Below are positions 5,973-28,343 of a stretch of DNA of 37,083 nt, one piece after another. Position 1 is the stretch's first letter. The number at the start of each line of letters is the position of its first letter. The notes beneath the pieces were generated by a model, which saw nothing but the letters and a program-made list of their open reading frames with translations, had not been told where the DNA came from and did not search any database. The DNA is taken from assembly GCA_012031195.1 (NCBI GenBank), contig JAAUUG010000001.1, positions 1 through 37,083 of the forward strand. The letters are read 5' to 3'. This stretch comes from Oscillatoriales cyanobacterium SM2_1_8. GTDB taxonomy: Bacteria > Cyanobacteriota > Cyanobacteriia > Pseudanabaenales > Pseudanabaenaceae. The position numbers and the translations under genes are program-made.

Positions 5973-6013
5973 GGTGGTTGGTTGCTTATTTCCCTAGAAT
6001 TTCCCGCAATCCC

Positions 6014-6433
6014 TTATTTCTTCTTGCCGCCGCCTTTGCCAGCCGCTGCGGCCGGTTGTCCAGGCTTCGGCCGCTTGGCGCCATACTTGGAACGCCCTTG
6101 CTTCCGATCCTTGACGCCGGAGGCATCCAACGTACCGCGGATGATGTGGTACCGCACCCCCGGCAAGTCTTTGACCCGACCACCCCGAATCATGACGACC
6201 GAGTGTTCCTGCAGGTTGTGACCAATCCCAGGGATGTAGGCGGTAACCTCAAAACCCGAGGTGAGACGTACCCGTGCCACTTTCCGGAGGGCCGAGTTCG
6301 GCTTTTTGGGCGTGGTGGTGTACACCCGTGTGCAGACACCCCGGCGTTGCGGACAGGCTTTAAGAGCGGGAGATTTGGTCTTTCGCTGGAGCTTTTGGCG
6401 CTCGCTGCGAATCAACTGCTGGATTGTCGGCAT
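6014..6433 (-). CDS. rpsL: 30S ribosomal protein S12, with a Gly/Lys-rich C-terminal tail
   Basis: The internal ATG at 6431-6433 gives [14 protein letters not shown]...[16 protein letters not shown], the canonical S12 sequence. The track ORF extends upstream to 6604, which is spurious. The tail reads [18 protein letters not shown]. Confidence 0.95.
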
Positions 6434-6497
6434 AGAAATTGGGCTGCGACTGCTTCTGACTTGGCTAAGACAACGGTCAACAACCATAACATGCCGC

Positions 6498-8144
6498 CTA
6501 CACCCTGTCAAGATTGGGTTGGTGGGCGGTGGTCTGGAGCTGCTGCCATTCCGACCGGCCGAGGTGTTGCAGGTACCGCCGGTGCTTTTGGTACACCAGT
6601 CCACTGCCCAGGCTGGCGAGGGTGGCCACCCCCAACCACTGACCGAGGTTCGGTTGGCTGGTTCCGAAGAGGGCGGCGCCGGGAAAGGCGGTGAACAACC
6701 AGAGGAAGGGGATTCGATCGGGGACGATGCCGGCGATCGCCAGGCTGAGGGGCGGCAGAATAACCAGGCTGGCCAGGGTCCCCCCGGCCCACAGCACCCG
6801 TTTGTTGGTTTTGAGGAGCAGGCAACGTTGCCCCAAGATCGCCAAGAGCACGCTCCACAGTCCTAGCAGCAGGGTGGCCATCAAGACGCGCAGCCGCTCC
6901 GGGGTGGTCACGTGGTTGGCGCACAGGAGGGCGATCGCCGTGAGGCCAACCAATCCCGCCTGCGCCAGGGCGATCGCCGGGGGGGCGGGGCTATTTTCGG
7001 CCAGGAAGAGGTCTTGCCAGGGGTATTGCCGGCGGTGGTGACGATGGCGGGCCCAATCCAAAAGGGTTTGGCGATGGGGCGACAGGACGGCGATCGCCGC
7101 GAGGTTGGCCATCAGGATGAGGATGTGCCAAATTTGCAGGGCTTCGGCACCCCAGAGACCGTGTTCCTCCCACACAAAGCCCAGTCCCAGGGTGTACCAG
7201 TACCCCAACAGCAGGTAGGCTTGGGATTTGCGGAAGACGGGGGCTTGGGGATCGGCAAAGCGGCGCTTCAGGCCTGTCCAGGCCCAGCCGGCCAGCCACA
7301 GCAGGTTGGCCAGGGTAAAGGCGTAGGAGATAAACCGCGTGCCGTTGAGGCGGTGACCAAACCAATACACCGGAAAGTTGGTGGCTTGGGTGAAGTAATG
7401 GGCATCGGGCCCCTCCCAGGCGATCGCCAGGTTGCTCAACAAAAAAGTCAGGCTAAATCCCAGGCCGAGACCTCCGGCCAAAACCAAGGTTAAACCGCTA
7501 AAAATGTCGCTGCGCTGTTGTTGGTTGCCGGCGATCGCCGCGAGCAATAGGGTGAGGGGAAACAACAAAACCGTGCCGGCGGCCAAGAGCAGGTAATACC
7601 CGACCACAAACTGGGGATCGGCGGACACTTGGTGAGCCACCCATAGGTGCAAGGGCACAGCACTGGCAAACATCAAACCGCAGAGGCTGGGCACCCCCCA
7701 CAATTTGCCGGTGAGGACGGCGGCGGCCGGTTGGGGGGAAAGCCGCAAAAAGGTGGCGGTGCCTCGGGATTCCTCCCGCTGCATGTCGGCGGCCAAAAAC
7801 AGGACGCTGGGTACCCATCCCCCCAGGGGCAACAACCAGTTCAAACTCCGGAAAACATCCAGGTACCAGCGCTCCCAATCCACCATGAGCCGGTTGTTGC
7901 CGTCCAACAGGCAGGCTTTGTAGGCGCTGGGGGCGCTGGTGAGGCAATAGGTGTGGTAGCGCTCCCCCACGGCCACGGTTTGGGTATCCGGAAGTTGGCT
8001 CCACCACGCCAGCATAAACAGCCCTTGGGCCAGAACGGCCAAAGCCAGGGCGATCGCCACGGTGCGGGGTTGCCACCGTCCTTTCCATTCCCGCATCAAC
8101 TGGGGATTGCGATCGCCAACCCAATCCACAAAATTAGCCAACAT
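6498..8144 (-). CDS. ABC-2-permease-like polytopic membrane protein, paralog 2
   Basis: Start is [23 protein letters not shown], with ATG at 8142-8144. The motif [13 protein letters not shown]...LTGKLWG matches the ABC-2 signature E..GTLE.L..P.....GK. Many transmembrane segments. Shares the N-terminal and RQTLLDW motifs with the upstream gene. Confidence 0.7.
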
Positions 8145-9900: not shown

Positions 9901-10791
9901 CTAGGCCACCACGGCAATGCCCCCACGGTAGGTGTGGGTCACCCAAAAATCCACCGGCCCGCTGCAGGCTTGGGCGATGCGGTGTCCGGCATCGGCATCG
10001 GGCACCAACCCAAAAACCGCCGACCCCGATCCTGACATCAGGGCGCCGATGGCCCCCGCGTCCATCAATTGGTTTTTCAAGGCCAAAATCTCGGGATGGC
10101 GCGGCAATACGGCCCGCTCCAAATCGTTGAACAGGTGGGGGGCGATCGCCTCCGGTTGACCCGTGGCCCAAGCGCCCAAAAATCGATGCAGCTGCTCACC
10201 CGATCGCACCGCCAACAACCCCTCTTCGCGAAAGATGCGGTAGGCTTCGGGGGTAGCTACGGACAAATGACGGGGTTTGGCCACCACCACCGTCAGCCCT
10301 TCGGTCGCAGGCAACGGGGACAAAATTTCGCCGCGCCCGGTACCCAGAGCCGTTCCCCCCATCACGCAAAACGCCACATCGGCCCCCAGAGTGGCCCCCA
10401 AGGCGGCCAATTCGGATACGGTTAGCCCCAAGTCCCACAACAAATTCCCGGCGACCAACACCGCGGCCGCATCGGCGGAACCACCGGCGAGTCCCGCACC
10501 TGCTGGAATCCGCTTTTCCAGGGTGAGATGGATGCCCCCAAGGTCGGGAAATTGCTGCCGCAAAGCCTGCGCCGCTTGCCATGCCAAATTCCGCCCGTCG
10601 GTCGGCAAATCCGGATCGTCGCACCGCAGCCGGATGGCTTCCGTATCTCCCCGCTCCACGGTTACCCGATCCGCCAACCCGATCGCCTGAAACACGACCG
10701 CCAACTCGTGGTAGCCGTCTGGCCGTCGCCCCCGAATTTCCAAGTAGGGATTGATTTTGGCCGGAGCCAACACCGTCAGGCGATCGCGCAT
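9901..10791 (-). CDS. ispE: 4-diphosphocytidyl-2-C-methyl-D-erythritol kinase
   Basis: GHMP kinase with APAKINPYLEI..RRPDGYHEL and IPAGAGLAGGSADAAA. I chose the ATG at 10789-10791 because it forms a TAATG overlap with the upstream stop codon. The track ORF starts 14 codons earlier, at 10833. Confidence 0.9.
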   Translation of the reverse strand: MRDRLTVLAPAKINPYLEIRGRRPDGYHELAVVFQAIGLADRVTVERGDTEAIRLRCDDPDLPTDGRNLAWQAAQALRQQFPDLGGIHLTLEKRIPAGAGLAGGSADAAAVLVAGNLLWDLGLTVSELAALGATLGADVAFCVMGGTALGTGRGEILSPLPATEGLTVVVAKPRHLSVATPEAYRIFREEGLLAVRSGEQLHRFLGAWATGQPEAIAPHLFNDLERAVLPRHPEILALKNQLMDAGAIGALMSGSGSAVFGLVPDADAGHRIAQACSGPVDFWVTHTYRGGIAVVA

Positions 10792-11057
10792 TACGAAAAC
10801 GTCCGCTTGTAAACGGTTTGCAAACGATCGCATTCGTGGGACTCCCCATCCCGTCGCAGCGATCGCAGCCGATTTTCCACCAACATTTTGGCCATGTTGC
10901 GGGTTACCGACTCGAACCGCACCGCACCATGGCTCTGGTCGATGGTAAAAAACAAACGATAGGCGTACAACGTGGTAAACAGACTGCGCCCGTCTTCGAT
11001 TTCACAGATGCGGGTCAGCAACCCAAAGGTAGGGTGATTCAGGTAGGTTTCTGCCAT
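10791..11057 (-). CDS. Small conserved cyanobacterial protein of unknown function
   Basis: 88 aa, MAETYLNHPTFGLL.... ATG at 11055-11057. Its stop overlaps the ispE start by one nucleotide (TAATG). I believe this is a cyanobacteria-specific DUF family, but that is unverified. Confidence 0.65.
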   Translation of the reverse strand: MAETYLNHPTFGLLTRICEIEDGRSLFTTLYAYRLFFTIDQSHGAVRFESVTRNMAKMLVENRLRSLRRDGESHECDRLQTVYKRTFS

Positions 11058-11197
11058 GCCACAAACGAACGCCCGCCAATTTCAGGGAATAGGAATCCGC
11101 ATTGTACGTCAGATGGGCCCCAATCCGATCTGGGCTGTACTTTTCGCTACACTCCTCAACCAGCCGCTACAATTGGGCCACCTCTATTCTTCGGCCT

Positions 11198-11662
11198 ATG
11201 TCCCCTGTCCGGTTCGATTGGTTAATGCCAAGAGCGATGCCAAAATTGATGCTAACGGTGGTGCTGACAGTGGTGCTGACGGTGGTGCTGACAGCAATCC
11301 CAACAGCAACCATTTGGACTTGGGCGGCGATCGCGGCCCCTGGTTCGGGGAGCCTGCAGGAAAATGGGAAGGAAAGCCTGAACGGCAACCGCACGGGACT
11401 GGCTTGGCAAGGGGCCGACCCGGCGTCCCGCCTCACCTATTGTGCGGCCGCTCTGGCTGCCTTTCGCGGATCCCCCAGCCAAAGTTACATCATTAGCCAC
11501 GACGTGCAAAGTTTGGACGCCTCCGGTCTGTGCGATCGCATCGATCAGTTCTACAGCCTTGAGGAAAATCAAGATCAACGCCTCAGCACCGCGGCCGCCC
11601 TGGCCCCCCTACTATTTGCCGATACCCCCAAAGACCGCCGCTTTTACCCGTCCCTGCGGTGA
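11198..11662 (+). CDS. Hypothetical exported or membrane-anchored protein
   Basis: ORF with a hydrophobic N-terminus (MPKLMLTVVLTVVLTVVLTAIPTA) followed by a soluble region. The start is ambiguous, with ATGs at 11198, 11225, 11237 and 11249. Confidence 0.5.
   Translation: MSPVRFDWLMPRAMPKLMLTVVLTVVLTVVLTAIPTATIWTWAAIAAPGSGSLQENGKESLNGNRTGLAWQGADPASRLTYCAAALAAFRGSPSQSYIISHDVQSLDASGLCDRIDQFYSLEENQDQRLSTAAALAPLLFADTPKDRRFYPSLR
11251..11295 (+). repeat. 12-bp tandem repeat, about 3.75 units (GCTGACNGTGGT)
   Basis: Read directly from the sequence. It encodes the (LTVV)x3 part of the hydrophobic N-terminus of the 11198-11662 ORF. Confidence 0.9.
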
Positions 11663-12003
11663 GCCAAAGACAAGTGAGCCGCAGACAAGCGAGCCGAAGA
11701 AGGTGGCAACAATCCGTCCGTGACCACCAGATCAAAACGCCAATGGGGCACCTGGGCGATTGCCTGGGCCATGGCCCGCAAATCCTCTTGACCGTTAAGC
11801 CCCAACCGCTCCCGGTGCCGCACTTCTACTGCCAGATGGCGATCGCCCTTCGCGGCGACCAAGTCAAACGGATAGCCTGCCTCCGGTGGCAAAGCCTTGG
11901 CTGCGGGCTGCATCACCACTTCATAGCCCCGCTGCCGCAACCAATGCGCCAACCGCGACAACAGCCGTAGTTCGGTTAACCCTTTGTGATGCCGATAGCT
12001 CAT
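11644..12003 (-). CDS. Small PD-(D/E)xK-like protein (archaeal-Holliday-junction-resolvase-like pattern)
   Basis: 119 aa with ATG at 12001-12003. The pattern LAHWLRQRGYEV...FDLVAAKGDRHLAVEVR...WRFDLVV fits a D...E-x-K/R restriction-endonuclease-fold core. Inference from the motif only. Confidence 0.5.
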   Translation of the reverse strand: MSYRHHKGLTELRLLSRLAHWLRQRGYEVVMQPAAKALPPEAGYPFDLVAAKGDRHLAVEVRHRERLGLNGQEDLRAMAQAIAQVPHWRFDLVVTDGLLPPSSARLSAAHLSLAHRRDG

Positions 12004-12071
12004 AGGCCTGCTCTACACTGCCTTTTCTATGGGCCTTACGATTATAGGGAATTTGCACCAAACCGACAAAC

Positions 12072-12198
12072 TTATAGCTGTTTTGCATAGCGACGAGACA
12101 AAACAACTCCGGTCGCAGGGGCGAAGCCCCCATATTGGTTCTATTAGACGTTCGTTGGGCAAGAAAAAACCGTGTCGGTTTTAATTAAAATGACTATA
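12072..12198 (-). mobile_element. MITE/PATE-like repeat, copy B (127 bp, reverse orientation)
   Basis: Its reverse complement aligns end to end with copy A, with few mismatches. Confidence 0.7.
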
Positions 12199-12214
12199 TA
12201 GCTGCAAACCGCTT

Positions 12215-12265
12215 GGTTAAAACGGGGTGCAGGGGTTTCACCCCTGACTGGGGGCGCAGCCCCCA
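12215..12265 (-). terminator. Two tandem GC hairpins downstream of the RusA-like gene (terminator-like)
   Basis: AGGGG-TTTCA-CCCCT at 12231-12245 and TGGGGGC-GCA-GCCCCCA at 12249-12265. On the minus strand they are followed by GTTTT. Confidence 0.35.
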
Positions 12266-12321
12266 ACTCCCCTTTCACGCCCATGTCCGCACTTACCCGC
12301 ATATAGCCATAACCTACCAAC

Positions 12322-12738
12322 TTAAAGTGCGGCGGGATCGGGGGCTTCTTCGATGCGAAGGTGCAAAAATTCCTGATTGCTCTGAAACCCTTCCGCCAGA
12401 GACGTGCTGAGACCCCGCACCCGGTACGTACCGTTCAGGTTGCGCCGCCGGCTGACAAAATCGGAAATTTGATAATCGTCCACATAGATTACCCCGTTCA
12501 GGGCATCTCGTACCGGTTTCACGATGTTGTCGCTGTCCGGTACCCCCGATTCGTCTCCCGCCGGGGCTTCAAAAAAATGCGTGATCGTGACCCGTAGGTT
12601 CTTGCCGGTGGGCGACCCTGACCAAGTAGACTGGGCACGCGATCGCACCGTCGCTTTCCACTCCTGCAACCGCGCCTTGTCTTTGGTTTGATGGGAAATG
12701 GGCTTGCCCACCACCGTAAACTCAAACGGTAACGTCAA
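12322..12738 (-). CDS. rusA: RusA-family crossover junction endodeoxyribonuclease
   Basis: 138 aa. PDSDNIVKPVRDALNGVIYVDDYQI matches the RusA core D-x-D-N-x-x-K-x-x-x-D-A-L...DD-x-Q. TTG start with a GGAGA Shine-Dalgarno sequence. Confidence 0.8.
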   Translation of the reverse strand: MTLPFEFTVVGKPISHQTKDKARLQEWKATVRSRAQSTWSGSPTGKNLRVTITHFFEAPAGDESGVPDSDNIVKPVRDALNGVIYVDDYQISDFVSRRRNLNGTYRVRGLSTSLAEGFQSNQEFLHLRIEEAPDPAAL

Positions 12739-12871
12739 GGACTATCTCCAAGGACTATCTCCCCAAGCTCTTGGCTGCTCATGAATGCTAGGGCGATCGC
12801 CGGGGGACAAGGGTCTTTCCCCCAATTGACCTGACTCTAGGACACCTGCATGGGGGTTTCATGGCCCCCAG

Positions 12872-17135: not shown

Positions 17136-17750
17136 GTGTCCGCGTCACGTAAGGTTCTGGTTATCGACGACAGTCGCACCATTCGCAACATGGTGAAGGG
17201 AATGCTCCCTGCTGCCAATTTTGAAGTGCTGGAGGCAGCCGATGGCGTAGCCGGTCTATCGGCCGTCGAGCGGGAAAAGCCCTGGCTCATTATGCTGGAC
17301 TTCATCTTACCCAAAATGAGCGGGTACGAGGTCTACGAAAACATTCGCAAAAATCGCGAGCTGTACCGCATTCCCCTGGTTTTGATGTCAGGGAAAAAAG
17401 AAGAGGTGACCAGCAAAATTTCGGAACCGCTGGAGTCCCACTATCTAGTCTTCATCGAGAAGCCGTTTGATAAAGACAAATTGGCGGCCGCGATCAAAAG
17501 AGCTTACGATCTAGCCAATCAAATCCCCAACGATTACCTGCCGGCGGAACCGGTGGCGGTGGCGGCTGGCAACGGTGCAGCCCCGACTTTGGATCCCGCC
17601 CTGCTGTCCCGCATCGAAGAACTGGAAATCAAGCTTCACCAGACCGAGGATTTGGAAAAACGCCTCAAAGCCCTGGAGCAACAAACGGCGATTCAAGCCA
17701 AACAGATTCAACAGTTGGTGGCGTTCATCAAGCAAAAGTTGGGAGGCTAA
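17136..17750 (+). CDS. Response regulator: receiver domain plus a C-terminal coiled coil, with no DNA-binding domain
   Basis: The REC motifs VLVIDDS, IMLDFILPKMSG, LMSG and EKPF are present. The C-terminus is heptad-like (IEELEIKLHQTEDLEKRLKALEQQ). GTG at 17136 with GGGAGAGG upstream. The track ORF starts at TTG 17067. Confidence 0.8.
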   Translation: MSASRKVLVIDDSRTIRNMVKGMLPAANFEVLEAADGVAGLSAVEREKPWLIMLDFILPKMSGYEVYENIRKNRELYRIPLVLMSGKKEEVTSKISEPLESHYLVFIEKPFDKDKLAAAIKRAYDLANQIPNDYLPAEPVAVAAGNGAAPTLDPALLSRIEELEIKLHQTEDLEKRLKALEQQTAIQAKQIQQLVAFIKQKLGG

Positions 17751-17807
17751 AAATGGATGGTGAATCCCAACTGGTCTTGGGCAACAACATCCTCGGCATT
17801 ATCAACT

Positions 17808-18736
17808 TCATTCCTTAATCAGCAACAAGTAATCCCTGGTTTCCTGACCGGCAAAGCATTGCTGCTCTACCAAGCCATCATGGGCAATGCTAAACAGTCG
17901 GTAATTCTTACGCAAAAAACTCAATTCGTTGAGGCCTTCTTCCGTAATTGGCAATACTTCCAAAACGATATCAGGCTTTTTCTCTAAAATTACCGACTCC
18001 ATTCCCTGCAGAATCAACTTCTCAAAACCCTCTGCATCCACTTTAAATAAAATGTTCTTGGCATCCCCTAGCAGAGAGGAAAATATGTTGGCATCTATAA
18101 ACAATGCATCACTAACACAAATCTCGTCTGAGAAATTTGAAGCAAACTCAGAGAGAAGAGAACCGTAAACTTCAAGAAACCTGTGTTTTGGGCGATACCA
18201 AAATTAAAAATTTGGATGTTTTTTAGTTGATTTGCACGAACGTTCTGCTGCAGTCTAAAGAAAGCTTCACAAGAAGGCTCGAAGGCATAAACTCGACAAT
18301 CAAGATTGTTTTTCTGAATATACCTGCCGAAAAAGACGGTGAAGATTCCTACGTTTGCACCAATTTCAACAATTAAGTCATATTTGGACAATCTGGAAGC
18401 TAGGACGTTGAATACTTCAGTTTCATAGCGTATATTTTGAGAGAACATCACTTCGAAGTCAAATTCACCGGGATGAGGCACAATCCAAAGATCAACTCTA
18501 TCCGCCGAAGTGCCAGCCCAAACCTGCTGTGGTTCAAAAGAAACTCCTTGCCAATCGATATTCCGGAATGAGTTAACAATCTGATTCTTAAACTTGTTTT
18601 CAGGTAGAGAACGAGCGACCTTGCTCCATAAATAAATATATTTTTGCGCCACGTATGGCGATTTGGCAATGACTGAATGCAGTCTATGTGCGATTTTCGC
18701 CAAAAAACTTCTGTTGTCAATATCAGTTGGCTTCAT
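17808..18736 (-). pseudogene. FkbM-family methyltransferase on a low-GC island, with an apparent 1-nt frameshift
   Basis: Contains IVEIGANVGIFTVFF...VYAFEPSCEAFFRLQQNVRANQLKNIQIFNFGIAQNTGFLKF, then the frame changes at the A3 run 18167-18169 to YGSLLSEF...ILFKVDAEGFEKLILQG. I judge the GC content at about 40%, against about 60% or more in the flanks. Confidence 0.8.
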
Positions 18737-18801
18737 AAAGGGAAAAATCAGTTATTTTTTTAGAAAACAGGGATCGCTACTATTCACACAGGGGGTCAGT
18801 A

Positions 18802-18849: not shown

Positions 18850-19421
18850 CTATTCTCCGATCGCTCGGGCGGCTTGTTGGGTAGCGGTTTGGGCCGATTC
18901 CCACAACAATTGCAGCACCTTGCCCCGCTCGTTTACCGGGATGTAGGTCACCACTTCCCGCAGGGTCGCTCGCACCCGCGTTTGAATCCAGGGTTTGGCG
19001 AACCGATCCAAATTGACAAGGTTGGCGTTGCGGGGCACCGGGTACCGCTGCATCAGGGTTGCCGCAATCGGCAGTTTCTCATCGCAAAACCAGTCGTTGA
19101 CGTTGCCGATGCACAATTCCCAAAATTCCAAGGCGGTTTCGTATTCGCGGAGGGCTCCCTGCAGGCTTCTACCCCGACGGTGTTGCCGGAGTGGGCGGCC
19201 GTATCTACGGCTTGGCGGGCACGAAGCAGGGCTTGACGGTAATCGTTCAACACCAACCGTTCGGTGGTGAGGTGGGTGGGCACCAACCGCATTTGGCGCA
19301 GGGCGTGGACGTTGCTGGCGGCGGTGGGGGCTACGGTTTCCTGGGGGGCGGCGGCACGGGCCAGCCCCGGAGTCAACAACCATAGACCGGCAATCACAGG
19401 AATCCAAGAACGGCAAAACAC
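18850..19421 (-). pseudogene. Hypothetical secreted protein, with an apparent 1-nt frameshift
   Basis: GTG at 19419-19421 sits 8 nt after GGAGG and gives a signal-peptide-like sequence (FCRSWIPVIAGLWLLTPGLARAAAP). The frame changes near 19164-19166, joining ...GNTVGVEA to LQGALREYETALEFWEL.... No family recognised. Confidence 0.5.
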
Positions 19422-19620
19422 GGCGATTTCCTCCGAAGGGTTTTCAAAGAAAGAAGGTTTTCCAAAACTTTCCAAAACAATGTGGAGCTATGAAAACACC
19501 AATTCGGCAGGCTTGAGCCACCTTTTCGCCTGCGCTTGTGGGGTTAGTTTAGCAAGAGCCGGGGCGATCGCGCTAGCCGGAAACCGCTACACTAAGGAGC
19601 CGTACCCCGCAACCGTGCCG

Positions 19621-21306
19621 ATGGCTACCCGAATTTTTCTGTGCGACGAGCGCGAAGAGCCGGAAATCCGTCAATTTATCCGGGAAGCTGCCGCCAGTTT
19701 TGCCAAGGGGGAGGAATACATCGTTACTTGGAGCTGTGCCAACGTCACCTCGATTCAGGTGGGCGATCGCGCTTTGGTGAAGCGCATTGGTCGGCAGCCC
19801 CACGGTTTTTTTGCGGCGGGGTATGTGGTAGCGGCCGAGAAACGTTACCAATTGCGGCTGCGCGATCGCCGTTACCAAAACCTGAGCGAAGCCTACGACA
19901 ACGAATTTTTCCGGGGCAATTTTACGATCTGGCTGGCTTGGGAAGCCTGCACCGACTACGACACGCCGTTGCGTACCGCCCGACTCGAAGAAATGCCGGA
20001 GTTTCGGGGGGCTTTGTTCAACCCGACGGTGGGGGGCGGCGCTTTCCGGGCGGAGTTTGTCGATTTGTTGGAGGAAGAGTGGGAAGATCACTGCGAAGCG
20101 GCCGTCAAGCAAAAACGGGCGTTTCGGCTGGTGGATTTTTTCATTGCCCACGGTCAAAAAGCCAACCAGCAGGGCAAGCCGGCGGAAGCGGTGGAGTGGT
20201 ACGGCCAGGCGATTGACATTGACCCCAACTGTGCCAAAGCATTTGTCGGTTCCGCCAACGCCCTCCAAGCCCTTGGGGAACACCCCCGGGCGATCGCCGA
20301 TTACACCGAAGCCCTCGACATTGGTTCGGCCTACGACAAGGTGGCTTTTTATCGCCGGGGGGTCTCCCATGCCGCCCTCAAGGATTGGGCCGCCGCCGCC
20401 CGCGATTTTGGCCGGGCCGCCGCCCTCGATCCCCGCAACCCCGAAGCCCTCACCCAACAAGCGATCGCCCTCTACAAAACCCGGGACTTTGCCAAGGCGA
20501 TCGCCGCTTTGACCGAGGTGGTGAACCGCGATCCCGAAAACACCGAAGCGTTGTTGTACCTGGGGCGATCGCACTACAACCGCAAAGAATACGAGGCGGC
20601 CTTGGCCCGCATGGAAGCGTTGTTGGATGTGGCACCCGACAGCGCCGAAGGGTTTTACTATCGGGGCGTGATTTTGACCAAGCTGATCCCACCCCGCGAG
20701 CAAGAAGCCCTTTTAGACCTCAAAAAAGCGGCTCGATTGTTCAAGAACCAAAATCAATTGGATCGCTACGTCAAAGCCCGCAATTTGATGGACGTGTTGG
20801 CCACCGAAGAAGGGGAAGACGAAGTGCTGCGGTTGCCCCAAGCCGAAACGCCGGTGCTGACGCCGCCCGCTCCGGCCCCCATGGTCGAGGAATCCCCCAA
20901 AGAAGAAGGGAGAGAAGAAGCGGCCGAGGAAGAGCGCCGGCCCGATCGTCTACGGGAAGCTGAAAAACGGGCCCTGGAATTGGTTTTGGAGCAATACAAC
21001 CAAGAAGGATGGGAAATTGCGCCGGCTCCCTCCCGCAAAGCCGGGTACAAGTTTCGAGCCCTCAGGGGTGAGGTCGAAGAGGATGTAGAAGTCAAAGGTC
21101 TGGTGAGCAGCGATCTCACCTTTGCCATGAGCTCCCGCGAAGTCCGCCAAGCCGAAGCCAATCCCAATTTTGTGCTCTGGGCGATCGCCAATGCCCTCAG
21201 CGAACCGGAACCCCAATGCTGGCGCGGTCGGGAAATCCTCGAAAAATTTGCCCTCGACCCGATGAAGTATTTGGCCCGCTACCAAGGGGAATTGCCCCAG
21301 ACGTGA
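19621..21306 (+). CDS. Multidomain protein: PUA/EVE-like N-domain, TPR repeats, acidic/Pro linker and a DUF3883-type C-domain
   Basis: ATG at 19621, 561 aa. N-terminus has W..ANVTSIQVGDRALVKRIGRQPHGFFAAGYVVA. The middle holds about 5-6 TPR units (AVEWYGQAIDIDPN...). The C-terminus reads EKRALELVLEQYNQEGWEI...GYKFRALRGEVEEDVEVKG...FAMSSREVRQAEANPNFVLWAI, which matches my recollection of the DUF3883 pattern. Confidence 0.75.
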   Translation: MATRIFLCDEREEPEIRQFIREAAASFAKGEEYIVTWSCANVTSIQVGDRALVKRIGRQPHGFFAAGYVVAAEKRYQLRLRDRRYQNLSEAYDNEFFRGNFTIWLAWEACTDYDTPLRTARLEEMPEFRGALFNPTVGGGAFRAEFVDLLEEEWEDHCEAAVKQKRAFRLVDFFIAHGQKANQQGKPAEAVEWYGQAIDIDPNCAKAFVGSANALQALGEHPRAIADYTEALDIGSAYDKVAFYRRGVSHAALKDWAAAARDFGRAAALDPRNPEALTQQAIALYKTRDFAKAIAALTEVVNRDPENTEALLYLGRSHYNRKEYEAALARMEALLDVAPDSAEGFYYRGVILTKLIPPREQEALLDLKKAARLFKNQNQLDRYVKARNLMDVLATEEGEDEVLRLPQAETPVLTPPAPAPMVEESPKEEGREEAAEEERRPDRLREAEKRALELVLEQYNQEGWEIAPAPSRKAGYKFRALRGEVEEDVEVKGLVSSDLTFAMSSREVRQAEANPNFVLWAIANALSEPEPQCWRGREILEKFALDPMKYLARYQGELPQT

Positions 21307-21388: not shown

Positions 21389-22672
21389 TTAGGGGGAAAT
21401 CCCGGCCAACGGCAGGTATACCGTGAACGTGGTGCCTTGATGCCACACCGATTGGCATTGAATTTCGCCGCGATGGGTCTCGTAGATAATTTGCCGGCAA
21501 ATGGCCATCCCCAACCCGGTGCCTTTGCCCACGGGTTTGGTGGTAAACAACGGCTCAAACAACCGCTGTTGGGTTTCAGGGGTCATGCCCAGGCCATTGT
21601 CGGAAATGGCGATCGCCGCCCGATCGCCTTCACGGTAAACATGCACCGTTAGTTGGGGACGGCGATCGCCCATCAACCCCTTGGTGTAGGCTTCTTCCAT
21701 GGCATCGATCGCATTGCCCAGGATGTTCATCAACGCTTGGTTGATTTGACTTGGATAACAGGGCACTTTTTCGATGAGGTGGTATTGACGCACCACGTTG
21801 ACGCCGGGCCATCTCCCCGCGGCTTTTAAGCGATAGGACAAGATCAACAACACCCCTTCCACACTTTCTTCGAGGAGAACGGCGGTGGGGGCCGCCGCAT
21901 CGGTGCGGGCAAAGTTGCGCAACGTGCCGGAAATCGAAACCAGCAAGTTGGCTCCCAATTCCATGCCGTCCAAAATTTTGCGAAAGTCGGTTAGAGCAAA
22001 GTCCAAATCGTTGGCGATCGCCCCCTCATCTCCGAGTTGGCTTTGGTAATACCGGAAATAGGCCGCCATCTCATCCAGGTATTCCTTCGCCGGCGGCAAA
22101 TTGTTTTGAATAAAGTTGATGGGGTTTTTGATTTCGTGCGCAACCCCTGCCATAAGGTTGCCCAAAGAAGCCATTTTCTCGTATTGCAACAATTGGGTGC
22201 GTGCCTGCTGCAAGCGCTCTTCTTGTTCTTGCAATTCTCGAATGGAGGCCAAGGTACGGTTTAGGGTGATTTCCAAATCCTGAAAATCAATCGGCTTGGT
22301 CAAAAAGTCGAAGGCTCCCCGGTTCATAGCGGTGCGGATGTTGCCTAGGTCGCCGTAAGCCGAGATGACAATGGCCCGTAGGCTGCGATCGCGCTCTTGC
22401 AATTTCGCCAAGAGGGTCAGGCCATCCATCTCCGGCATGTTGATGTCGGTCATGACCAAGCGGATGCGGGGCCCCACTTCGTCCAACACCCGGAGGGCTT
22501 CGATGCCGCTATGGGCGAACAAAAATTCGTAGGACGACTCCCGCAGTTGCCGGCGAAACCGCTGCCGAAACAACCGCTCTACTTCCAACTCGTCGTCTAC
22601 AATCAAAACCCCCAGGCGGTTGGTCGCAAGGTTGGGAGTCTCAGCAAAGGAAGAAGCGCTGCGGCCGGTCAT
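21389..22672 (-). CDS. Hybrid response regulator / histidine kinase (REC-HisKA-HATPase)
   Basis: REC motifs VLIVDDE and MTDINMPEMDG. H-box MAGVAHEIKNPINF. G-boxes DNGLGM and GKGTGLGMAI. Confidence 0.9.
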   Translation of the reverse strand: MTGRSASSFAETPNLATNRLGVLIVDDELEVERLFRQRFRRQLRESSYEFLFAHSGIEALRVLDEVGPRIRLVMTDINMPEMDGLTLLAKLQERDRSLRAIVISAYGDLGNIRTAMNRGAFDFLTKPIDFQDLEITLNRTLASIRELQEQEERLQQARTQLLQYEKMASLGNLMAGVAHEIKNPINFIQNNLPPAKEYLDEMAAYFRYYQSQLGDEGAIANDLDFALTDFRKILDGMELGANLLVSISGTLRNFARTDAAAPTAVLLEESVEGVLLILSYRLKAAGRWPGVNVVRQYHLIEKVPCYPSQINQALMNILGNAIDAMEEAYTKGLMGDRRPQLTVHVYREGDRAAIAISDNGLGMTPETQQRLFEPLFTTKPVGKGTGLGMAICRQIIYETHRGEIQCQSVWHQGTTFTVYLPLAGISP

Positions 22673-22686
22673 GTCGATCCCATCCC

Positions 22687-24051
22687 TTAAACCGACTGCA
22701 AAACGGACTGGTCAGTGAATTGCTTGGGCAGAATGAGGGTAAATTCTGTGTACTCCCCCAATGCGGTCGCCACGTTCAGGTTACCACGGTGCTGCCCAAC
22801 CAAGATATCGTGGGTGAGGGACAAACCCAGACCGGTGCCTTCGCCTGCAGGTTTGGTGGTAAAAAAGGGCGTGAAAATTTTTTCGAGGGCTTCGGTGGAA
22901 ATGCCGCTGCCGTTGTCACGGATCACCACTTCGACGGCTTGCCCCCGATCCCGTGTGATCAGGGTGAGCTGGGGCTGAAAGGTTTCGCCGAGGCTGACTT
23001 GTTTGAGCCCCAAGGCGTAGCAGGCGTTGTCGGCCAGGTTGATGATGGCCCGGGTAAAATCGCCGATCACCAGCTCGACCAACCCCACCCCCGGATCGTA
23101 TTGCCGCACGAAGGCGACGTTGAAGCTGCTGTCTTTGGCCCGACGGCTATGGTAGGCCAACTGCACCGATTGCTCGATCAGGGCGTTCAGCTCGACCGGT
23201 TGGGCCTGGCCGCCACCGTCGGTGCGGGCGTGTTGCATCATGCTTTGGATGATGCTTTCGGCCCGCTGCCCGTGTTCGTGGATGGAGCGGGCGTTTTCGG
23301 CCAATTCTTGCACCACCGCCGTCACGTCGGCCCACAGCCCCGGCTGCGGTTGCGCTTGGTAAGCCTGCAACAACTCCTGCAACTCTTGGGCCATGTCCAT
23401 CGAACCGGCGGCAAAGTTGTTGACAAAGTTTAACGGATTCCGCAATTCGTGGGCGACGCCGGCGGTGAGGGTACCCAACGACGCCAATTTTTCCTGGGCC
23501 ACAATCTGCTTCTGGGCTGCCTGCAAATCGGCGAGGGTTTTGACCAATTGCTGGTTTTGGGTTTCGAGGGCACGGGCCAAGGTGTTTAACCGCATGTGCA
23601 GGCGCACCCGTGCCAACACTTCCTCTTCTTCAAAAGGCTTGGTGATGTAATCGACCGCCCCCAACGACAACCCCCGCACCTTGGCCGCGGTTTCGGAAAG
23701 GGCTGTCATAAAAATGACCGGAATATCTTGGGTAATCTCTTCCTCTTTGAGCCGTTCGCAGGTCTTGAAACCGTCGATGCCGGGCATCATCACATCCAGC
23801 AAAATCAGGGCGGGGGGGTCGTAGGCGGCCAGCTTGAGGGCGGTGGTACCGTTGTTGGCTACCGCAACCTCAAAGCCAGCGCTGGTTAAGGTTTTGGACA
23901 GCACCTTGAGGTTGGTGGGGTTGTCGTCCACGATCAAGATGGGGCGCTCAGATTCGGCCCCAACCGGACCGACGGCGAGCAGGTCGGCCGCGATCGCTTT
24001 GGCAGGCTTGAGGTCTGGATGTTCCGGAGAAGCGGGCAGCATGGCAATCAC
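22687..24051 (-). CDS. Hybrid response regulator / histidine kinase (REC-HisKA-HATPase), paralogous architecture
   Basis: REC motifs ILIVDDNPTN and LLDVMMPGIDG. H-box TAGVAHELRNPLNF. ATP-lid motifs DNGSGI and GEGTGLGLSL. GTG start at 24051, or ATG at 24042. Confidence 0.9.
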   Translation of the reverse strand: MIAMLPASPEHPDLKPAKAIAADLLAVGPVGAESERPILIVDDNPTNLKVLSKTLTSAGFEVAVANNGTTALKLAAYDPPALILLDVMMPGIDGFKTCERLKEEEITQDIPVIFMTALSETAAKVRGLSLGAVDYITKPFEEEEVLARVRLHMRLNTLARALETQNQQLVKTLADLQAAQKQIVAQEKLASLGTLTAGVAHELRNPLNFVNNFAAGSMDMAQELQELLQAYQAQPQPGLWADVTAVVQELAENARSIHEHGQRAESIIQSMMQHARTDGGGQAQPVELNALIEQSVQLAYHSRRAKDSSFNVAFVRQYDPGVGLVELVIGDFTRAIINLADNACYALGLKQVSLGETFQPQLTLITRDRGQAVEVVIRDNGSGISTEALEKIFTPFFTTKPAGEGTGLGLSLTHDILVGQHRGNLNVATALGEYTEFTLILPKQFTDQSVLQSV

Positions 24052-26916: not shown

Positions 26917-27178
26917 CGTAGTGCTTCTTACAGCCTTTTTCGGGATCAAGTACCACAGTAGCACGGCTCGGGAAAAAGTAAACCGCTGTAGGTTGTCGCA
27001 AGCCCTCTTTTGTCCCCTTCGCCATGTGCTACATTTTTGCTCAAGCAGCTGTATCTGTACTGGCTAACGAATCTTTCTTCCGTCTTTATCTGCAACAGAT
27101 ACCACACTTGACCCAAAAATATGAAAATAGCTATACTTCTATGGTTCGCTTAAGAAATCAATACGAAAACAAGGAATT

Positions 27179-28189
27179 ATGAACTCCAAGAACAAAGATT
27201 ACATATCTAAAAATTTGTATTACATAGAAAAAATTGCCGCTCCTGAAATTCAGTGCTCAATCACGCCTAAACACAGTCAGTTTTACCAACTTGCACACAA
27301 GCATTCTATGGAATGGTCTTTGCAGATGCAGCTGATAACTTCTCGAGGATCTAAGAGCTATACCAAACTAGAGAAAGCTGAATTCGCTTGGTTGGCTGCT
27401 GCAACTTACCCTGAAGCATCCTTGGGTCAACTGGAAATTGCTGCAGATTACATGATTTGGTTTTTCATGTATGACGATGAATATGTTTCGAGTAAGAAGC
27501 CTGATTGTCAAAAAATACTAGAGCAGGTTCAGGAAAGACTGAATGCTGTGATGTATGGTGGAGATTGTATGGAAAGGGATGTTCCAGTGGTGAAAGCCCT
27601 AAGCAATATTTGTTACCGCATTTACCAAGAAAACGGAAGTCAGGGATTCTGGCTAGATCGATTTCGTTTTCACATGGAAAGATATTTCGAAGCCAACCTA
27701 TGGAATCTAAAAGTTTGTTTAGATCAAAGAATCCCTTGTCTAGATGAGTACAAGTCATACAGGATTTACGATATAGGCTTATTGCCAACCCTTGATCTAT
27801 CTTCTCACTTTAATCAAATAGACTACAAAAACGAGTTCTTCAGAACCGAATTATTCGAGCAGGTATCAAGGCTGACGGCCACTCATGTGTATGTGTTAAA
27901 TGATATTTTAGGAATCAAAAAAGAAATTCTGGATGAGGAGCCCATCAATATCGTGTTTGTTCTGCAAAATGCATCGGAAGTAGACCTCCTTCAGGCATAC
28001 GATCAAGCTATTTTGCTTTGCAATCAGGAATTCCAAACCTATGAGGATGCTTGCGACTCCGCTCGTAAGCTTAGGGCTCAAGTAGAACCTGAGATCGAGC
28101 AATACATTAATGTGTGCAACGCTTGGATTCGGGGACACTTTGATTGGTATTTTGTCTCAAAAAGATACAAGTCTCCTGGGACGGTTTAA
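27179..28189 (+). CDS. Class I terpene synthase (single-domain bacterial cyclase type) on a low-GC island
   Basis: 336 aa. Asp-rich motif FFMYDDEYV. NSE/DTE-type motif LNDILGIKKE, with Gly where Ser/Thr is usual. C-terminal RY pair (SKRYKS). Size and spacing fit bacterial sesquiterpene or diterpene cyclases. Confidence 0.8.
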   Translation: MNSKNKDYISKNLYYIEKIAAPEIQCSITPKHSQFYQLAHKHSMEWSLQMQLITSRGSKSYTKLEKAEFAWLAAATYPEASLGQLEIAADYMIWFFMYDDEYVSSKKPDCQKILEQVQERLNAVMYGGDCMERDVPVVKALSNICYRIYQENGSQGFWLDRFRFHMERYFEANLWNLKVCLDQRIPCLDEYKSYRIYDIGLLPTLDLSSHFNQIDYKNEFFRTELFEQVSRLTATHVYVLNDILGIKKEILDEEPINIVFVLQNASEVDLLQAYDQAILLCNQEFQTYEDACDSARKLRAQVEPEIEQYINVCNAWIRGHFDWYFVSKRYKSPGTV

Positions 28190-28343
28190 TCTAGCTTGAT
28201 CTGAGCCAATCTAAGGCTCTCCTGGCTTTATGGCAAAGCACTAGGCGTCTCAAGGGTCAAATCCTGATAGGGCAAGGACACCTCAGGACACAGAAGACCC
28301 CTTACTTCACCGCGTTCCTTGGAGAGCCCAATCTAAACTGAAG

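What the first reader, a model, noticed from the sequence alone, without database searches (positions are those of the whole stretch)
19621..21306. PUA/EVE-like + TPR + DUF3883-type fusion protein: candidate single-gene nucleic-acid surveillance or defence factor
The 561-aa protein near the window centre joins three modules that I do not know as a described combination.

1. An N-terminal domain of about 170 aa with the pattern W-x(7)-I-x-VGDRALVKRIGRQPHGFFAAGYVV. This pattern is seen in PUA-superfamily (EVE/ASCH-like) readers fused to HNH or McrB-type type IV restriction proteins.
2. About 5-6 TPR units.
3. After an acidic, Pro-rich linker, a C-terminal domain matching the DUF3883 pattern (E..A.E.V........GW.V...S....GY...........VEVKG.....F.[LM]S..E...A.......Y.L..V). 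This is a PD-(D/E)xK-like module recurrent in restriction and defence contexts.

The position that is usually Asp in G-Y-D is Lys here (GYKF), so the nuclease may be inactive or re-purposed. The gene is flanked by a low-GC island and by signalling genes rather than conserved housekeeping partners.
Basis: partly seen in the sequence, partly recalled or inferred. Interest (0 to 1): 0.7.

Follow-up and report, generated by a model that had tools for sequence, protein, structure and literature searches.

The report
EVE-like reader, TPR, degenerate nuclease
This cyanobacterial gene looks like a restriction enzyme that cuts chemically modified DNA, but its lineage has gained a protein-binding repeat array, lost the cutting residues and become a stably inherited chromosomal gene, so it more likely reads modified DNA or RNA than destroys it.

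Summary
Window 19621-21306(+) encodes a real 561-aa protein with three modules:
- A divergent EVE/PUA-like domain (res 1-170). It has no Pfam hit. A family profile hits EVE structure 2ar1, and the AF2 model (pLDDT 96) matches EVE structures best.
- Six TPRs.
- After an acidic/Pro linker, a NOV_C/DUF3883 domain with a PD-(D/E)xK fold (PF13020, above threshold).

The defence interpretation is only partly supported. The EVE-like domain defines a family that is cyanobacterial wherever an organism is named. Its C-terminus is either HNH_2 or NOV_C, and more distant relatives are EVE-HNH proteins annotated as McrA. The ancestry is therefore type-IV-restriction-like.

- All 11 short forms (<450 aa) keep the D-E-K triad. 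One sits on a Tolypothrix plasmid beside an integrase and a C5-methyltransferase.
- All 56 long multi-TPR forms lack a triad residue. In the window protein Asp is replaced by Lys477.
- Long forms occur in about 45 Pseudanabaenales species, in housekeeping neighbourhoods with no defence genes.
- All folded domains are under strong purifying selection (dN/dS 0.02-0.08).

Best reading: an exapted, non-cleaving reader and scaffold for modified nucleic acid. It is a new variant of a known kind.

The parts
19621..21306 (+). Complete gene, 561 codons plus stop; monocistronic (divergent gene upstream, convergent histidine-kinase gene downstream)
   Evidence: start fixed by orthologue alignment; dN/dS 0.08 against the 91%-identical orthologue in L075
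19621..20130 (+). N-terminal divergent EVE/PUA-like domain (res 1-170). Family-wide conserved residues: W37 (19729-19731), G48-D49 (19762-19767), G62, A65, G67, Y92 (19894-19896), L117, G139, L150, W154
   Evidence: no Pfam hit; 80 homologues in the representative library; profile hits EVE structures 2ar1/2eve; AF2 pLDDT 96.4; Foldseek top hits are EVE structures, then ASCH and YTH; conserved columns; dN/dS 0.02
20131..20805 (+). TPR array, about six units plus a capping helix (res ~171-395). The first TPR helix continues directly from the last helix of the EVE-like domain
   Evidence: Pfam TPR_2 E=3.7e-24, TPR_1 6.5e-21; AF2 helix 170-177 at the end of the N-domain model; dN/dS 0.08
20806..20940 (+). 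Acidic, Pro-rich, length-variable linker (res ~396-440), probably disordered
   Evidence: Among orthologues the spacer between the EVE-like and NOV_C domains (TPR array plus linker) ranges from 260 to 639 residues, and the excess lies in the linker; dN/dS 0.32 here, median 0.13 in Pseudanabaena pairs
20941..21303 (+). C-terminal NOV_C/DUF3883 domain with PD-(D/E)xK fold (res 441-561; Pfam match 447-532). Motif positions: helix-1 Glu448 (20962-20964); Lys477 in place of the catalytic Asp (21049-21051, 'GYKF'); Glu490-x-Lys492 (21088-21096)
   Evidence: PF13020 31.1 bits, above the 22.1 cut-off; AF2 pLDDT 92; Foldseek matches are PD-(D/E)xK nucleases; motif comparison; dN/dS 0.06

Best explanation
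The gene encodes a vertically inherited, catalytically degenerate descendant of a cyanobacterial family of EVE-like-TPR-nuclease proteins. That family is itself related to EVE-HNH and EVE-PD-(D/E)xK modification-dependent (type IV) restriction enzymes.

**Proposed mechanism**
- The N-terminal EVE-like domain binds nucleic acid by capturing a flipped, modified base in its conserved pocket. This is inferred from the fold and from how VcaM4I and THYN1 work.
- The six-TPR array, expanded from the single TPR of short relatives, is a platform for partner proteins or self-association (inferred).
- The C-terminal NOV_C domain keeps the PD-(D/E)xK fold but has Lys477 where the metal-binding Asp should be. 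It therefore most likely no longer cleaves and instead serves as a dimerisation and/or nucleic-acid-binding module (inferred).

**Conclusion.** The protein is best read as a chromosomal reader and scaffold for a modified base in DNA (or RNA) in Pseudanabaenales. It is not a restriction nuclease.

**Shown:** the domain identities, the family relationships, the loss of triad residues in all long forms, the synteny and the purifying selection.

**Inferred:** the ligand, the partner binding and the absence of cleavage.
For: **Domains.**

**Modular family.**
- The same N-domain is followed by TPR+HNH_2, TPR+NOV_C, NOV_C alone, HNH alone, or nothing.
- A profile search reaches about 100 further proteins, mostly ~270-aa HNH fusions. 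Many are annotated 5-methylcytosine-specific restriction protein A, and some carry PF01878.

**Active-site pattern.**
- 11 of 11 short forms (<450 aa) keep E...D...ExK. 0 of 56 long forms (>=500 aa) do.
- At least four different substitution patterns occur: D->K in the window clade, E->V/I/L/T/A/S in Pseudanabaena, D->N plus E->N in P0009, and E->S plus K->R in Thalassoporum.
- On a rough NJ tree the long forms are monophyletic, with at least two independent first losses.

**The degenerate domain is still functional.**
- NOV_C dN/dS is 0.06 for window vs L075.
- Its median is 0.040 over 167 Pseudanabaena pairs, equal to the EVE domain at 0.035.

**Distribution.**
- All 69 genome loci are cyanobacterial, about 45 of them Pseudanabaenales species, with one locus found in each genome hit, complete genomes included.
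- In Pseudanabaena the conserved order is chorismate mutase / GAF protein / membrane protein upstream and an M1-aminopeptidase-like gene downstream.
- Other orthologues lie among bolA, pilQ, GHL10 and psbEFLJ.
- There are no defence hits and no phage hits.

**Contrast.** A triad-intact short form lies on a mobilizable Tolypothrix plasmid next to an integrase, a C5-methyltransferase and VapC.

**Precedent for the mechanism.** The VcaM4I EVE domain flips 5mC/5hmC into a hydrophobic pocket, and the enzyme dimerises through its nuclease domain (PMC7897488).
Against: - No experiment supports the reading, and the ligand is unknown.
- The target itself does not reach any Pfam EVE score, and Foldseek TM-scores are only about 0.5.
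- PD-(D/E)xK enzymes with relocated catalytic residues exist. Asp488, invariant in the window clade, lies on the same strand as Glu490 and Lys492 and could in principle compensate. Loss of activity is therefore inferred, not shown.
- Conserved synteny within a genus is also expected for an old, fixed defence gene.
- The Nostocales HNH_2 forms, which look catalytically intact, are also syntenic with housekeeping genes. Chromosomal fixation alone therefore does not prove a non-defence role.
- The genome scan used one peptide pattern, so presence or absence across all Pseudanabaenales was not measured.
Confidence: 0.5

Rival explanations
1. It is still an active single-protein modification-dependent (type IV) restriction nuclease. 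The EVE-like domain senses foreign modified DNA, and the NOV_C domain cleaves with a non-canonical site, for example Asp488/Glu490/Lys492 with Glu448. The TPRs regulate the enzyme or drive oligomerisation.
For: - Family ancestry and nuclease swapping between HNH_2 and NOV_C.
- YenY4I (PUA+DUF3427+DUF3883) is an active MDRE, though weak and Mn2+-dependent (PMC6765204).
- Glu490-x-Lys492 and the helix-1 Glu are retained, and Asp488 is invariant in the clade.
- The domain is under strong purifying selection.
Against: - The metal-binding Asp is Lys in the whole window clade.
- Sister clades instead lose the Glu of ExK, so no single alternative site is conserved across long forms: 0 of 56 keep the triad.
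- The gene has a core-like, syntenic distribution, with no defence neighbours and no phage or plasmid copies of long forms.
Confidence: 0.2
2. It is a fixed immune sensor that no longer cuts by itself. The EVE-like domain detects modified foreign nucleic acid, and the TPR array recruits or activates a separately encoded effector.
For: - The TPR expansion coincides exactly with the loss of catalytic residues. That fits a shift from cis nuclease to partner recruitment.
- The EVE pocket residues are conserved between short and long forms.
- TPR arrays act as sensor or adaptor modules in other conflict systems (established knowledge; weak PF20308 TPR-S hit).
Against: - No conserved partner gene lies next to it. 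The neighbours differ between genera and are housekeeping genes.
- No PADLOC matches.
Confidence: 0.2
3. It is a generic TPR scaffold protein whose terminal domains are structural relics with no nucleic-acid function.
For: - Public annotation calls it only a 'tetratricopeptide repeat protein'.
- The nuclease site is degenerate.
Against: - The EVE-like domain is the most conserved part: dN/dS 0.02, and 57-62% identity where the whole protein has 45-49%.
- The NOV_C domain is as constrained as the EVE domain.
- Relic domains would decay instead.
Confidence: 0.07

Closest known systems
EVE-HNH modification-dependent restriction endonucleases (VcaM4I / TspA15I group; PMC7897488, PMC6765204)
   Same: An N-terminal PUA-superfamily EVE-type reader is followed by a helical connector and a C-terminal nuclease-fold domain. 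A profile of the window's N-domain family reaches McrA-annotated EVE-HNH proteins. Cyanobacterial relatives carry HNH_2 in the same position.
   Different: The connector here is a six-unit TPR array plus a disordered linker, not a single helix. The effector is NOV_C rather than HNH, and its catalytic Asp is missing. The gene is vertically inherited among housekeeping genes rather than sporadic.
YenY4I / McaZI (PUA-sf + DUF3427 + DUF3883, and DUF3427-DUF3883; PMC6765204)
   Same: A PUA-superfamily domain is combined with a C-terminal DUF3883 (NOV_C) PD-(D/E)xK domain in one polypeptide.
   Different: There is no DUF3427 domain. TPRs take its place. YenY4I cleaves 5mC/5hmC DNA and is prophage or defence-island associated, whereas the window protein lacks the triad Asp and is chromosomal and syntenic.
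Predicted EVE-PD-(D/E)xK type IV restriction enzymes (Bell, Wolf and Koonin 2020, PMC7641849)
   Same: The core architecture is an EVE-type reader plus a PD-(D/E)xK nuclease. The short relatives P0115 and P0127 (EVE-like directly fused to NOV_C with an intact triad) fit this class.
   Different: That survey does not mention TPR inserts or cyanobacteria. The window protein belongs to a derived long clade with a degenerate site.
Stand-alone EVE/THYN1 and YTH readers
   Same: These are the best structural matches of the N-domain (2ar1, 2eve, 5j3e, YTH domains). They are non-catalytic readers of modified bases, which is the role proposed here.
   Different: Sequence identity is only about 10-14% and TM-scores are about 0.5. 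Those proteins lack TPR and nuclease-fold domains.

Membership tests
Pfam PF13020 NOV_C / DUF3883 (PD-(D/E)xK clan) | Profile match above the curated gathering score | tested here: met
   31.1 bits (33.9 for the isolated domain) against a cut-off of 22.1, res 447-532
Pfam PF13020 NOV_C / DUF3883 (PD-(D/E)xK clan) | PD-(D/E)xK alpha-beta-beta-beta-alpha-beta fold | tested here: met
   AF2 pLDDT 92 with that element order. The Foldseek hits are predominantly PD-(D/E)xK nucleases, prob up to 1.0, TM about 0.5
Pfam PF13020 NOV_C / DUF3883 (PD-(D/E)xK clan) | Catalytic triad D...(D/E)xK | tested here: not met
   Lys477 replaces Asp ('GYKF'); Glu490-x-Lys492 is present. 0 of 56 long forms have a full triad, against 11 of 11 short forms
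EVE domain (Pfam PF01878, PUA superfamily) | Profile match to PF01878 at or above the gathering score | tested here: not met
   No hit for the window domain even at E<=10. Only peripheral family members hit: P0115 21.3 bits and P0119 19.3 bits against a cut-off of 23, plus some precomputed PF01878 assignments
EVE domain (Pfam PF01878, PUA superfamily) | PUA-like beta-barrel fold closest to solved EVE structures | tested here: met
   The family profile hits 2ar1 at E=0.0037. Foldseek ranks 1-3 and 5-8 are EVE or PUA-like structures (2ar1, 2eve, 2p5d, THYN1, 2g2x), followed by ASCH and YTH
EVE domain (Pfam PF01878, PUA superfamily) | Pocket that binds a flipped modified base | not testable with these tools
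   Conserved W37, Y92, F64 and W154 are candidates. Model coordinates could not be inspected, and there are no binding data
Modification-dependent (type IV) restriction endonuclease | Reader domain fused to a nuclease domain in one polypeptide | tested here: met
   EVE-like plus NOV_C
Modification-dependent (type IV) restriction endonuclease | Intact nuclease active site | tested here: not met
   Lys477 in place of Asp
Modification-dependent (type IV) restriction endonuclease | Cleavage that depends on modified DNA; phage restriction | not testable with these tools
   Needs biochemistry and phage assays
Modification-dependent (type IV) restriction endonuclease | Sporadic distribution in mobile elements or defence islands (typical, not strictly defining) | tested here: not met
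   Found in about 45 Pseudanabaenales species at syntenic housekeeping loci. No PADLOC neighbours. No phage copies. Only a short relative is plasmid-borne
TPR repeat proteins | Tandem 34-residue helix-turn-helix repeats matching TPR profiles | tested here: met
   TPR_2 E=3.7e-24, five matched stretches, res ~175-345
Known anti-phage defence systems (PADLOC-DB v2) | Significant match to a system component | tested here: not met
   Only a generic TPR model (E=0.0074) and the C-terminal DUF3883 end of TmtA (E=0.0095)

The most novel reading that the evidence does not exclude
In the ancestor of Pseudanabaenales, a type IV restriction enzyme was domesticated into a bacterial 'epigenetic reader'.
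- The EVE-like domain now recognises a modification in the cell's own DNA or RNA.
- The nuclease domain was inactivated, which removes self-toxicity, and was kept as a DNA-binding or dimerisation module.
- The TPR array was expanded from one unit to six to recruit housekeeping partners for repair, replication, transcription or RNA processing.

This would be a prokaryotic counterpart of eukaryotic THYN1/YTH-type readers, and its evolutionary route from defence to core function could be traced.
Probability: 0.3. Interest if true: 0.8.

Novelty: new variant of a known kind. Interest (0 to 1): 0.55.

Why it matters
EVE/PUA readers fused to nucleases are the standard design of modification-dependent restriction enzymes. 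This family shows the same design at three stages:
- on a plasmid with an intact nuclease;
- fixed in Nostocales chromosomes with an apparently intact HNH;
- in Pseudanabaenales, with an expanded TPR array and a nuclease fold whose catalytic residues were lost in several different ways while the domain stayed under strong purifying selection.

If the long form is a non-cleaving reader, it would be a rare documented case of a restriction enzyme exapted into a core nucleic-acid-modification reader in bacteria. It would also give an entry point to how cyanobacteria, whose DNA is known to be methylated, read modified bases.

In practical terms, the N-domain is a well-defined family (80 representatives at 50% identity) with no Pfam model of its own. 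Public annotation of these proteins ('tetratricopeptide repeat protein') misses both terminal domains.

Tried and rejected
- **Word-index homologue search, N-domain alone:** found nothing. The exhaustive representative search was needed.
- **Exact look-up of the window protein in assemblies:** not on record.
- **PDB sequence searches:** the single N-domain gave no hit, and the C-domain profile gave no hit.
- **Genome scan:** the 58-sequence alignment A3 was too diverse to derive patterns. It was repeated with the 12-sequence A5.
- **Promoter and terminator scan around the gene:** nothing above shuffled expectation.
- **PADLOC on the protein and ten neighbours:** only weak matches (receiver-domain proteins, a methyltransferase and generic TPR), which I judge to be noise.
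- **Phage collection:** no match.
- **The longer 680-aa GTG frame from 19264:** rejected, because the orthologue start is conserved and the stretch overlaps the divergent upstream gene.
- **Low-GC island next to the gene as evidence that the gene is mobile:** rejected.
  - The gene itself has the ~60% GC typical of most of the window.
  - Homology with the sister genome L075 covers only the gene plus the upstream hypothetical.
  - The island and its FkbM methyltransferase are not shared.
- **A conserved operon partner:** rejected. The upstream same-strand gene is aroH in Pseudanabaena, bolA in P0004/P0006, and absent here.
- **Literature:** no paper in the library combines 'EVE domain' and TPR in one protein.
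Full report
**1. The observation**

Window 19621-21306(+) is an open frame of 561 codons.
- The start is secure. Nine orthologues from the protein database, and more than 60 of the 69 genomic copies recovered, begin with the same M-(A/P/V)-T-R-I-F-L-C.
- The longer GTG frame from 19264 overlaps a divergently transcribed gene.
- The gene is real. Against the 91%-identical orthologue on contig L075, whole-gene dN/dS is 0.08.

**2. The three modules**

*(a) TPR.* Pfam TPR_2 gives E=3.7e-24 with five matched stretches between res ~175 and 345. By eye there are six units plus a capping helix, res ~171-395.

*(b) C-terminus.*
- PF13020 (NOV_C, formerly DUF3883) matches res 447-532 at 31.1 bits, above the 22.1-bit cut-off. 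The isolated domain scores 33.9 bits.
- An AlphaFold2 model built on an 18-sequence alignment has pLDDT 92 and the helix/strand order of a PD-(D/E)xK core.
- Its Foldseek matches in the PDB are PD-(D/E)xK nucleases: I-Ssp6803I, the archaeal Hjc resolvases, tRNA-splicing endonuclease, the SPARDA nuclease domain and EcoRV. E-values are weak (>=0.01), but probabilities reach 1.0 and TM is about 0.5.

*(c) N-terminus.*
- The single sequence hits nothing in Pfam or in PDB sequences.
- An exhaustive phmmer search of 1.84 billion cluster representatives finds 80 homologues, 53 of them below 1e-10.
- A profile of 58 of these (A3) hits the EVE structures 2ar1 (E=0.0037) and 2eve (E=1.4).
- Several peripheral members hit PF01878.
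- An AF2 model (pLDDT 96.4, pTM 0.91) has as best PDB matches the EVE proteins 2ar1, 2eve, 2g2x, 2gbs and human THYN1, followed by ASCH and YTH domains.
- The N-domain is therefore a divergent EVE-type member of the PUA superfamily with no Pfam model of its own.

**3. The family**

The N-domain is the unifying element of a modular family. In relatives it is followed by one of five arrangements:
- TPR(s) plus HNH_2 (PF13391);
- TPR(s) plus NOV_C;
- NOV_C directly;
- HNH (PF01844) directly;
- nothing.

A profile search extends to about 100 further proteins. Most are ~270-aa HNH fusions. Many are annotated '5-methylcytosine-specific restriction protein A', and some carry PF01878.

This is the known design of modification-dependent (type IV) restriction enzymes.
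- EVE-HNH enzymes such as VcaM4I flip 5mC/5hmC into a hydrophobic EVE pocket and dimerise through the nuclease domain (PMC7897488).
- YenY4I combines a PUA-superfamily domain, DUF3427 and DUF3883 and cleaves modified DNA (PMC6765204).
- EVE-PD-(D/E)xK fusions were predicted as type IV enzymes by Bell et al. (PMC7641849).

So 'PUA + DUF3883' is not an undescribed combination. The TPR insert is new as far as the searchable literature shows.

**4. Who has it**

A pattern-seeded scan of one genome per GTDB species returned 69 loci, all cyanobacterial.
- About 45 are Pseudanabaena, Pseudanabaenaceae or Tumidithrix species with the long EVE-TPR-NOV_C form (545-703 aa). One locus was found in each genome hit, complete genomes included.
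- The closest is 'Cyanobacteria bacterium UBA8156', with 94% identity over the N-domain.
- Three Nostoc genomes carry a ~400-aa EVE-1TPR-NOV_C form.
- About 15 Nostoc and Calothrix genomes carry a ~410-aa EVE-TPR-HNH_2 form whose H...N...H motif looks intact.
- Named database relatives are also cyanobacterial (Leptothoe, Trichocoleus, Thalassoporum PCC 7367).

**5. The active site**

Relatives with a canonical NOV_C show helix-1 Glu, G-Y-D and V-E-V-K-G. The window protein has G-Y-K477-F and V-E490-V-K492-G.

Across every unique family member that has both domains, the split is complete:
- 11 of 11 short forms (<450 aa, 0-1 TPR) keep D, E and K;
- 0 of 56 long forms (>=500 aa, multi-TPR) do.

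The losses differ by lineage:

| Lineage | Change |
|---|---|
| Window clade (7 sequences) | D->K |
| Pseudanabaena, Tumidithrix and allies | E->V/I/L/T/A/S |
| P0009 | D->N and E->N |
| Thalassoporum (P0010) | E->S and K->R |

On a rough neighbour-joining tree of the N-domain the long forms form one clade with two sub-clades. These lost different residues first, which implies at least two independent hits, or relaxed constraint on catalysis from the base of the clade.

The domain is nevertheless far from decaying.

| Region | dN/dS, window vs L075 | Median dN/dS, 167 Pseudanabaena species pairs |
|---|---|---|
| EVE-like | 0.02 | 0.035 |
| TPR | 0.08 | 0.044 |
| Linker | 0.32 | 0.133 |
| NOV_C | 0.06 | 0.040 |

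A nuclease fold that loses its catalytic residues in several ways, yet stays as constrained as the reader domain, is the signature of a non-catalytic function. Plausible functions are binding or dimerisation. Relocation of catalytic residues cannot be excluded by sequence alone. For example, Asp488 is invariant in the window clade and lies on the same strand as Glu490 and Lys492.

**6. Genomic context**

*In the window.*
- The gene is monocistronic, lying between a divergent hypothetical gene and two convergent hybrid histidine-kinase/receiver genes.
- Further out are lipoyl synthase, a glycosyltransferase, a response regulator, psaC, an amidase and a terpene synthase.
- Neither the protein nor ten neighbours give meaningful PADLOC matches.

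*In other genomes.*
- Orthologues in other genera lie among bolA, pilQ, a GHL10 hydrolase-like gene, a Ski2-like helicase, psbEFLJ and groESL.
- In Pseudanabaena a fixed order is shared by 24-28 species: GAF protein, membrane protein, type-I chorismate mutase, this gene, and an M1-aminopeptidase-like gene.
- The Nostocales HNH_2 form is likewise fixed between alr, a small HNH gene and a DHH phosphoesterase on one side, and SixA, citrate synthase and ndhA-I-G on the other.

*Mobile elements.*
- There is no homologue in 50,697 phage records.
- Among 72,556 plasmids, the only hit that includes the EVE-like and NOV_C parts is a short, triad-intact form on a 31-kb mobilizable Tolypothrix PCC 7712 plasmid. 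It sits beside a site-specific integrase, a DNA cytosine methyltransferase and a VapC toxin. That gene is listed as strain-specific in PMC9679502.

Homology with the sister genome covers only the gene and the upstream hypothetical, and the neighbouring FkbM methyltransferases are unrelated.

**7. Interpretation**

The evidence fits a trajectory:
- from a mobile, probably active EVE-like-nuclease restriction protein (short forms);
- to a chromosomally fixed protein in Pseudanabaenales with an expanded TPR array and a non-catalytic nuclease fold.

The most likely mechanism has three parts.
- The EVE-like domain captures a flipped modified base. Its most conserved residues (W37, G48-D49, G62, A65, G67, Y92, L117, W154) are shared by short and long forms.
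- The NOV_C domain supplies dimerisation and/or backbone binding. This is by analogy with VcaM4I, which dimerises through its nuclease domain, and with dimeric PD-(D/E)xK enzymes such as Hjc, a top structural match.
- The TPR array recruits partners.

Whether the ligand is self DNA, RNA or foreign DNA is unknown. From general knowledge, cyanobacterial DNA is methylated. That would make an active self-recognising nuclease toxic and could explain inactivation. This is inference only.

The rivals are:
- a still-active nuclease with a non-canonical site;
- a fixed immune sensor that signals through TPR-bound partners;
- a generic TPR scaffold.

**8. Verdict**

The domains, the ancestry and the suspicion of inactivity were right. 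The role as a single-gene defence nuclease is not supported for this clade.
- The feature is a new variant of a known kind: an EVE-PD-(D/E)xK type-IV-like fusion with a TPR insert and a degenerate active site that behaves like a core gene.
- Interest is moderate to fairly high. There is a perfect 11/11 versus 0/56 split between TPR expansion and triad loss, and selection data support continued function. Together these make an exaptation hypothesis directly testable.

Noticed in passing
window 18850-19437 (-): The divergent upstream hypothetical gene is homologous to an intact 190-aa gene in the sister contig L075. In the window it is split between two reading frames near 19165 (aa 1-86 in frame -2, aa 86-191 in frame -1). 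This is a frameshift, so either a pseudogene or an assembly error. The gene has no Pfam domain.
   Followed up: partly
window 17500-18800: A low-GC island (~43% against ~60% in the flanks) holds an FkbM/Methyltransf_21-like methyltransferase split into two overlapping ORFs (17808-18104 and 18095-18736, both on the minus strand). The sister genome L075 has a different, non-homologous FkbM gene at the same position, so this is a variable spot.
   Followed up: partly
window 27000-28200: A second low-GC island (39-44% GC) carries a terpene synthase family 2 gene (27179-28189+, PF19086 E=1.9e-33). It may be a horizontally acquired sesquiterpene or odour-compound synthase.
   Followed up: no
L076 (Tolypothrix sp. 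PCC 7712 plasmid NZ_CP063798) 7001-8185: A short (394 aa) EVE-like-1TPR-NOV_C relative with an intact E/D/ExK motif lies on a mobilizable MOBP plasmid. It sits next to a site-specific integrase, a DNA cytosine methyltransferase and a VapC toxin. This is the defence- or mobile-like context that the window gene lacks.
   Followed up: partly
L053-L069 (Nostoc/Calothrix genomes), match at ~6001-6564: The EVE-like-TPR-HNH_2 form has an apparently intact HNH motif. It sits in a fixed block of alr / small HNH endonuclease / DHH phosphoesterase / this gene / SixA-like phosphatase / citrate synthase / ndhA-ndhI-ndhG in 11-12 species. Copies in L058, L068 and L070 are truncated. A seemingly active nuclease fixed among core genes is itself unexplained.
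   Followed up: partly
window 21389-24051 (-): Two tandem hybrid proteins (receiver domain + HisKA + HATPase_c, 427 and 454 aa) lie immediately downstream and converge on the gene. They are not conserved next to orthologues elsewhere.
   Followed up: no
L003 (Thalassoporum mexicanum PCC 7367) 10001-12814: The orthologue P0010 is 937 aa because the linker between the TPR array and NOV_C has grown to about 400 low-complexity residues. No PF13020 hit is precomputed for it, although the domain aligns. This illustrates extreme length plasticity of the linker.
   Followed up: no
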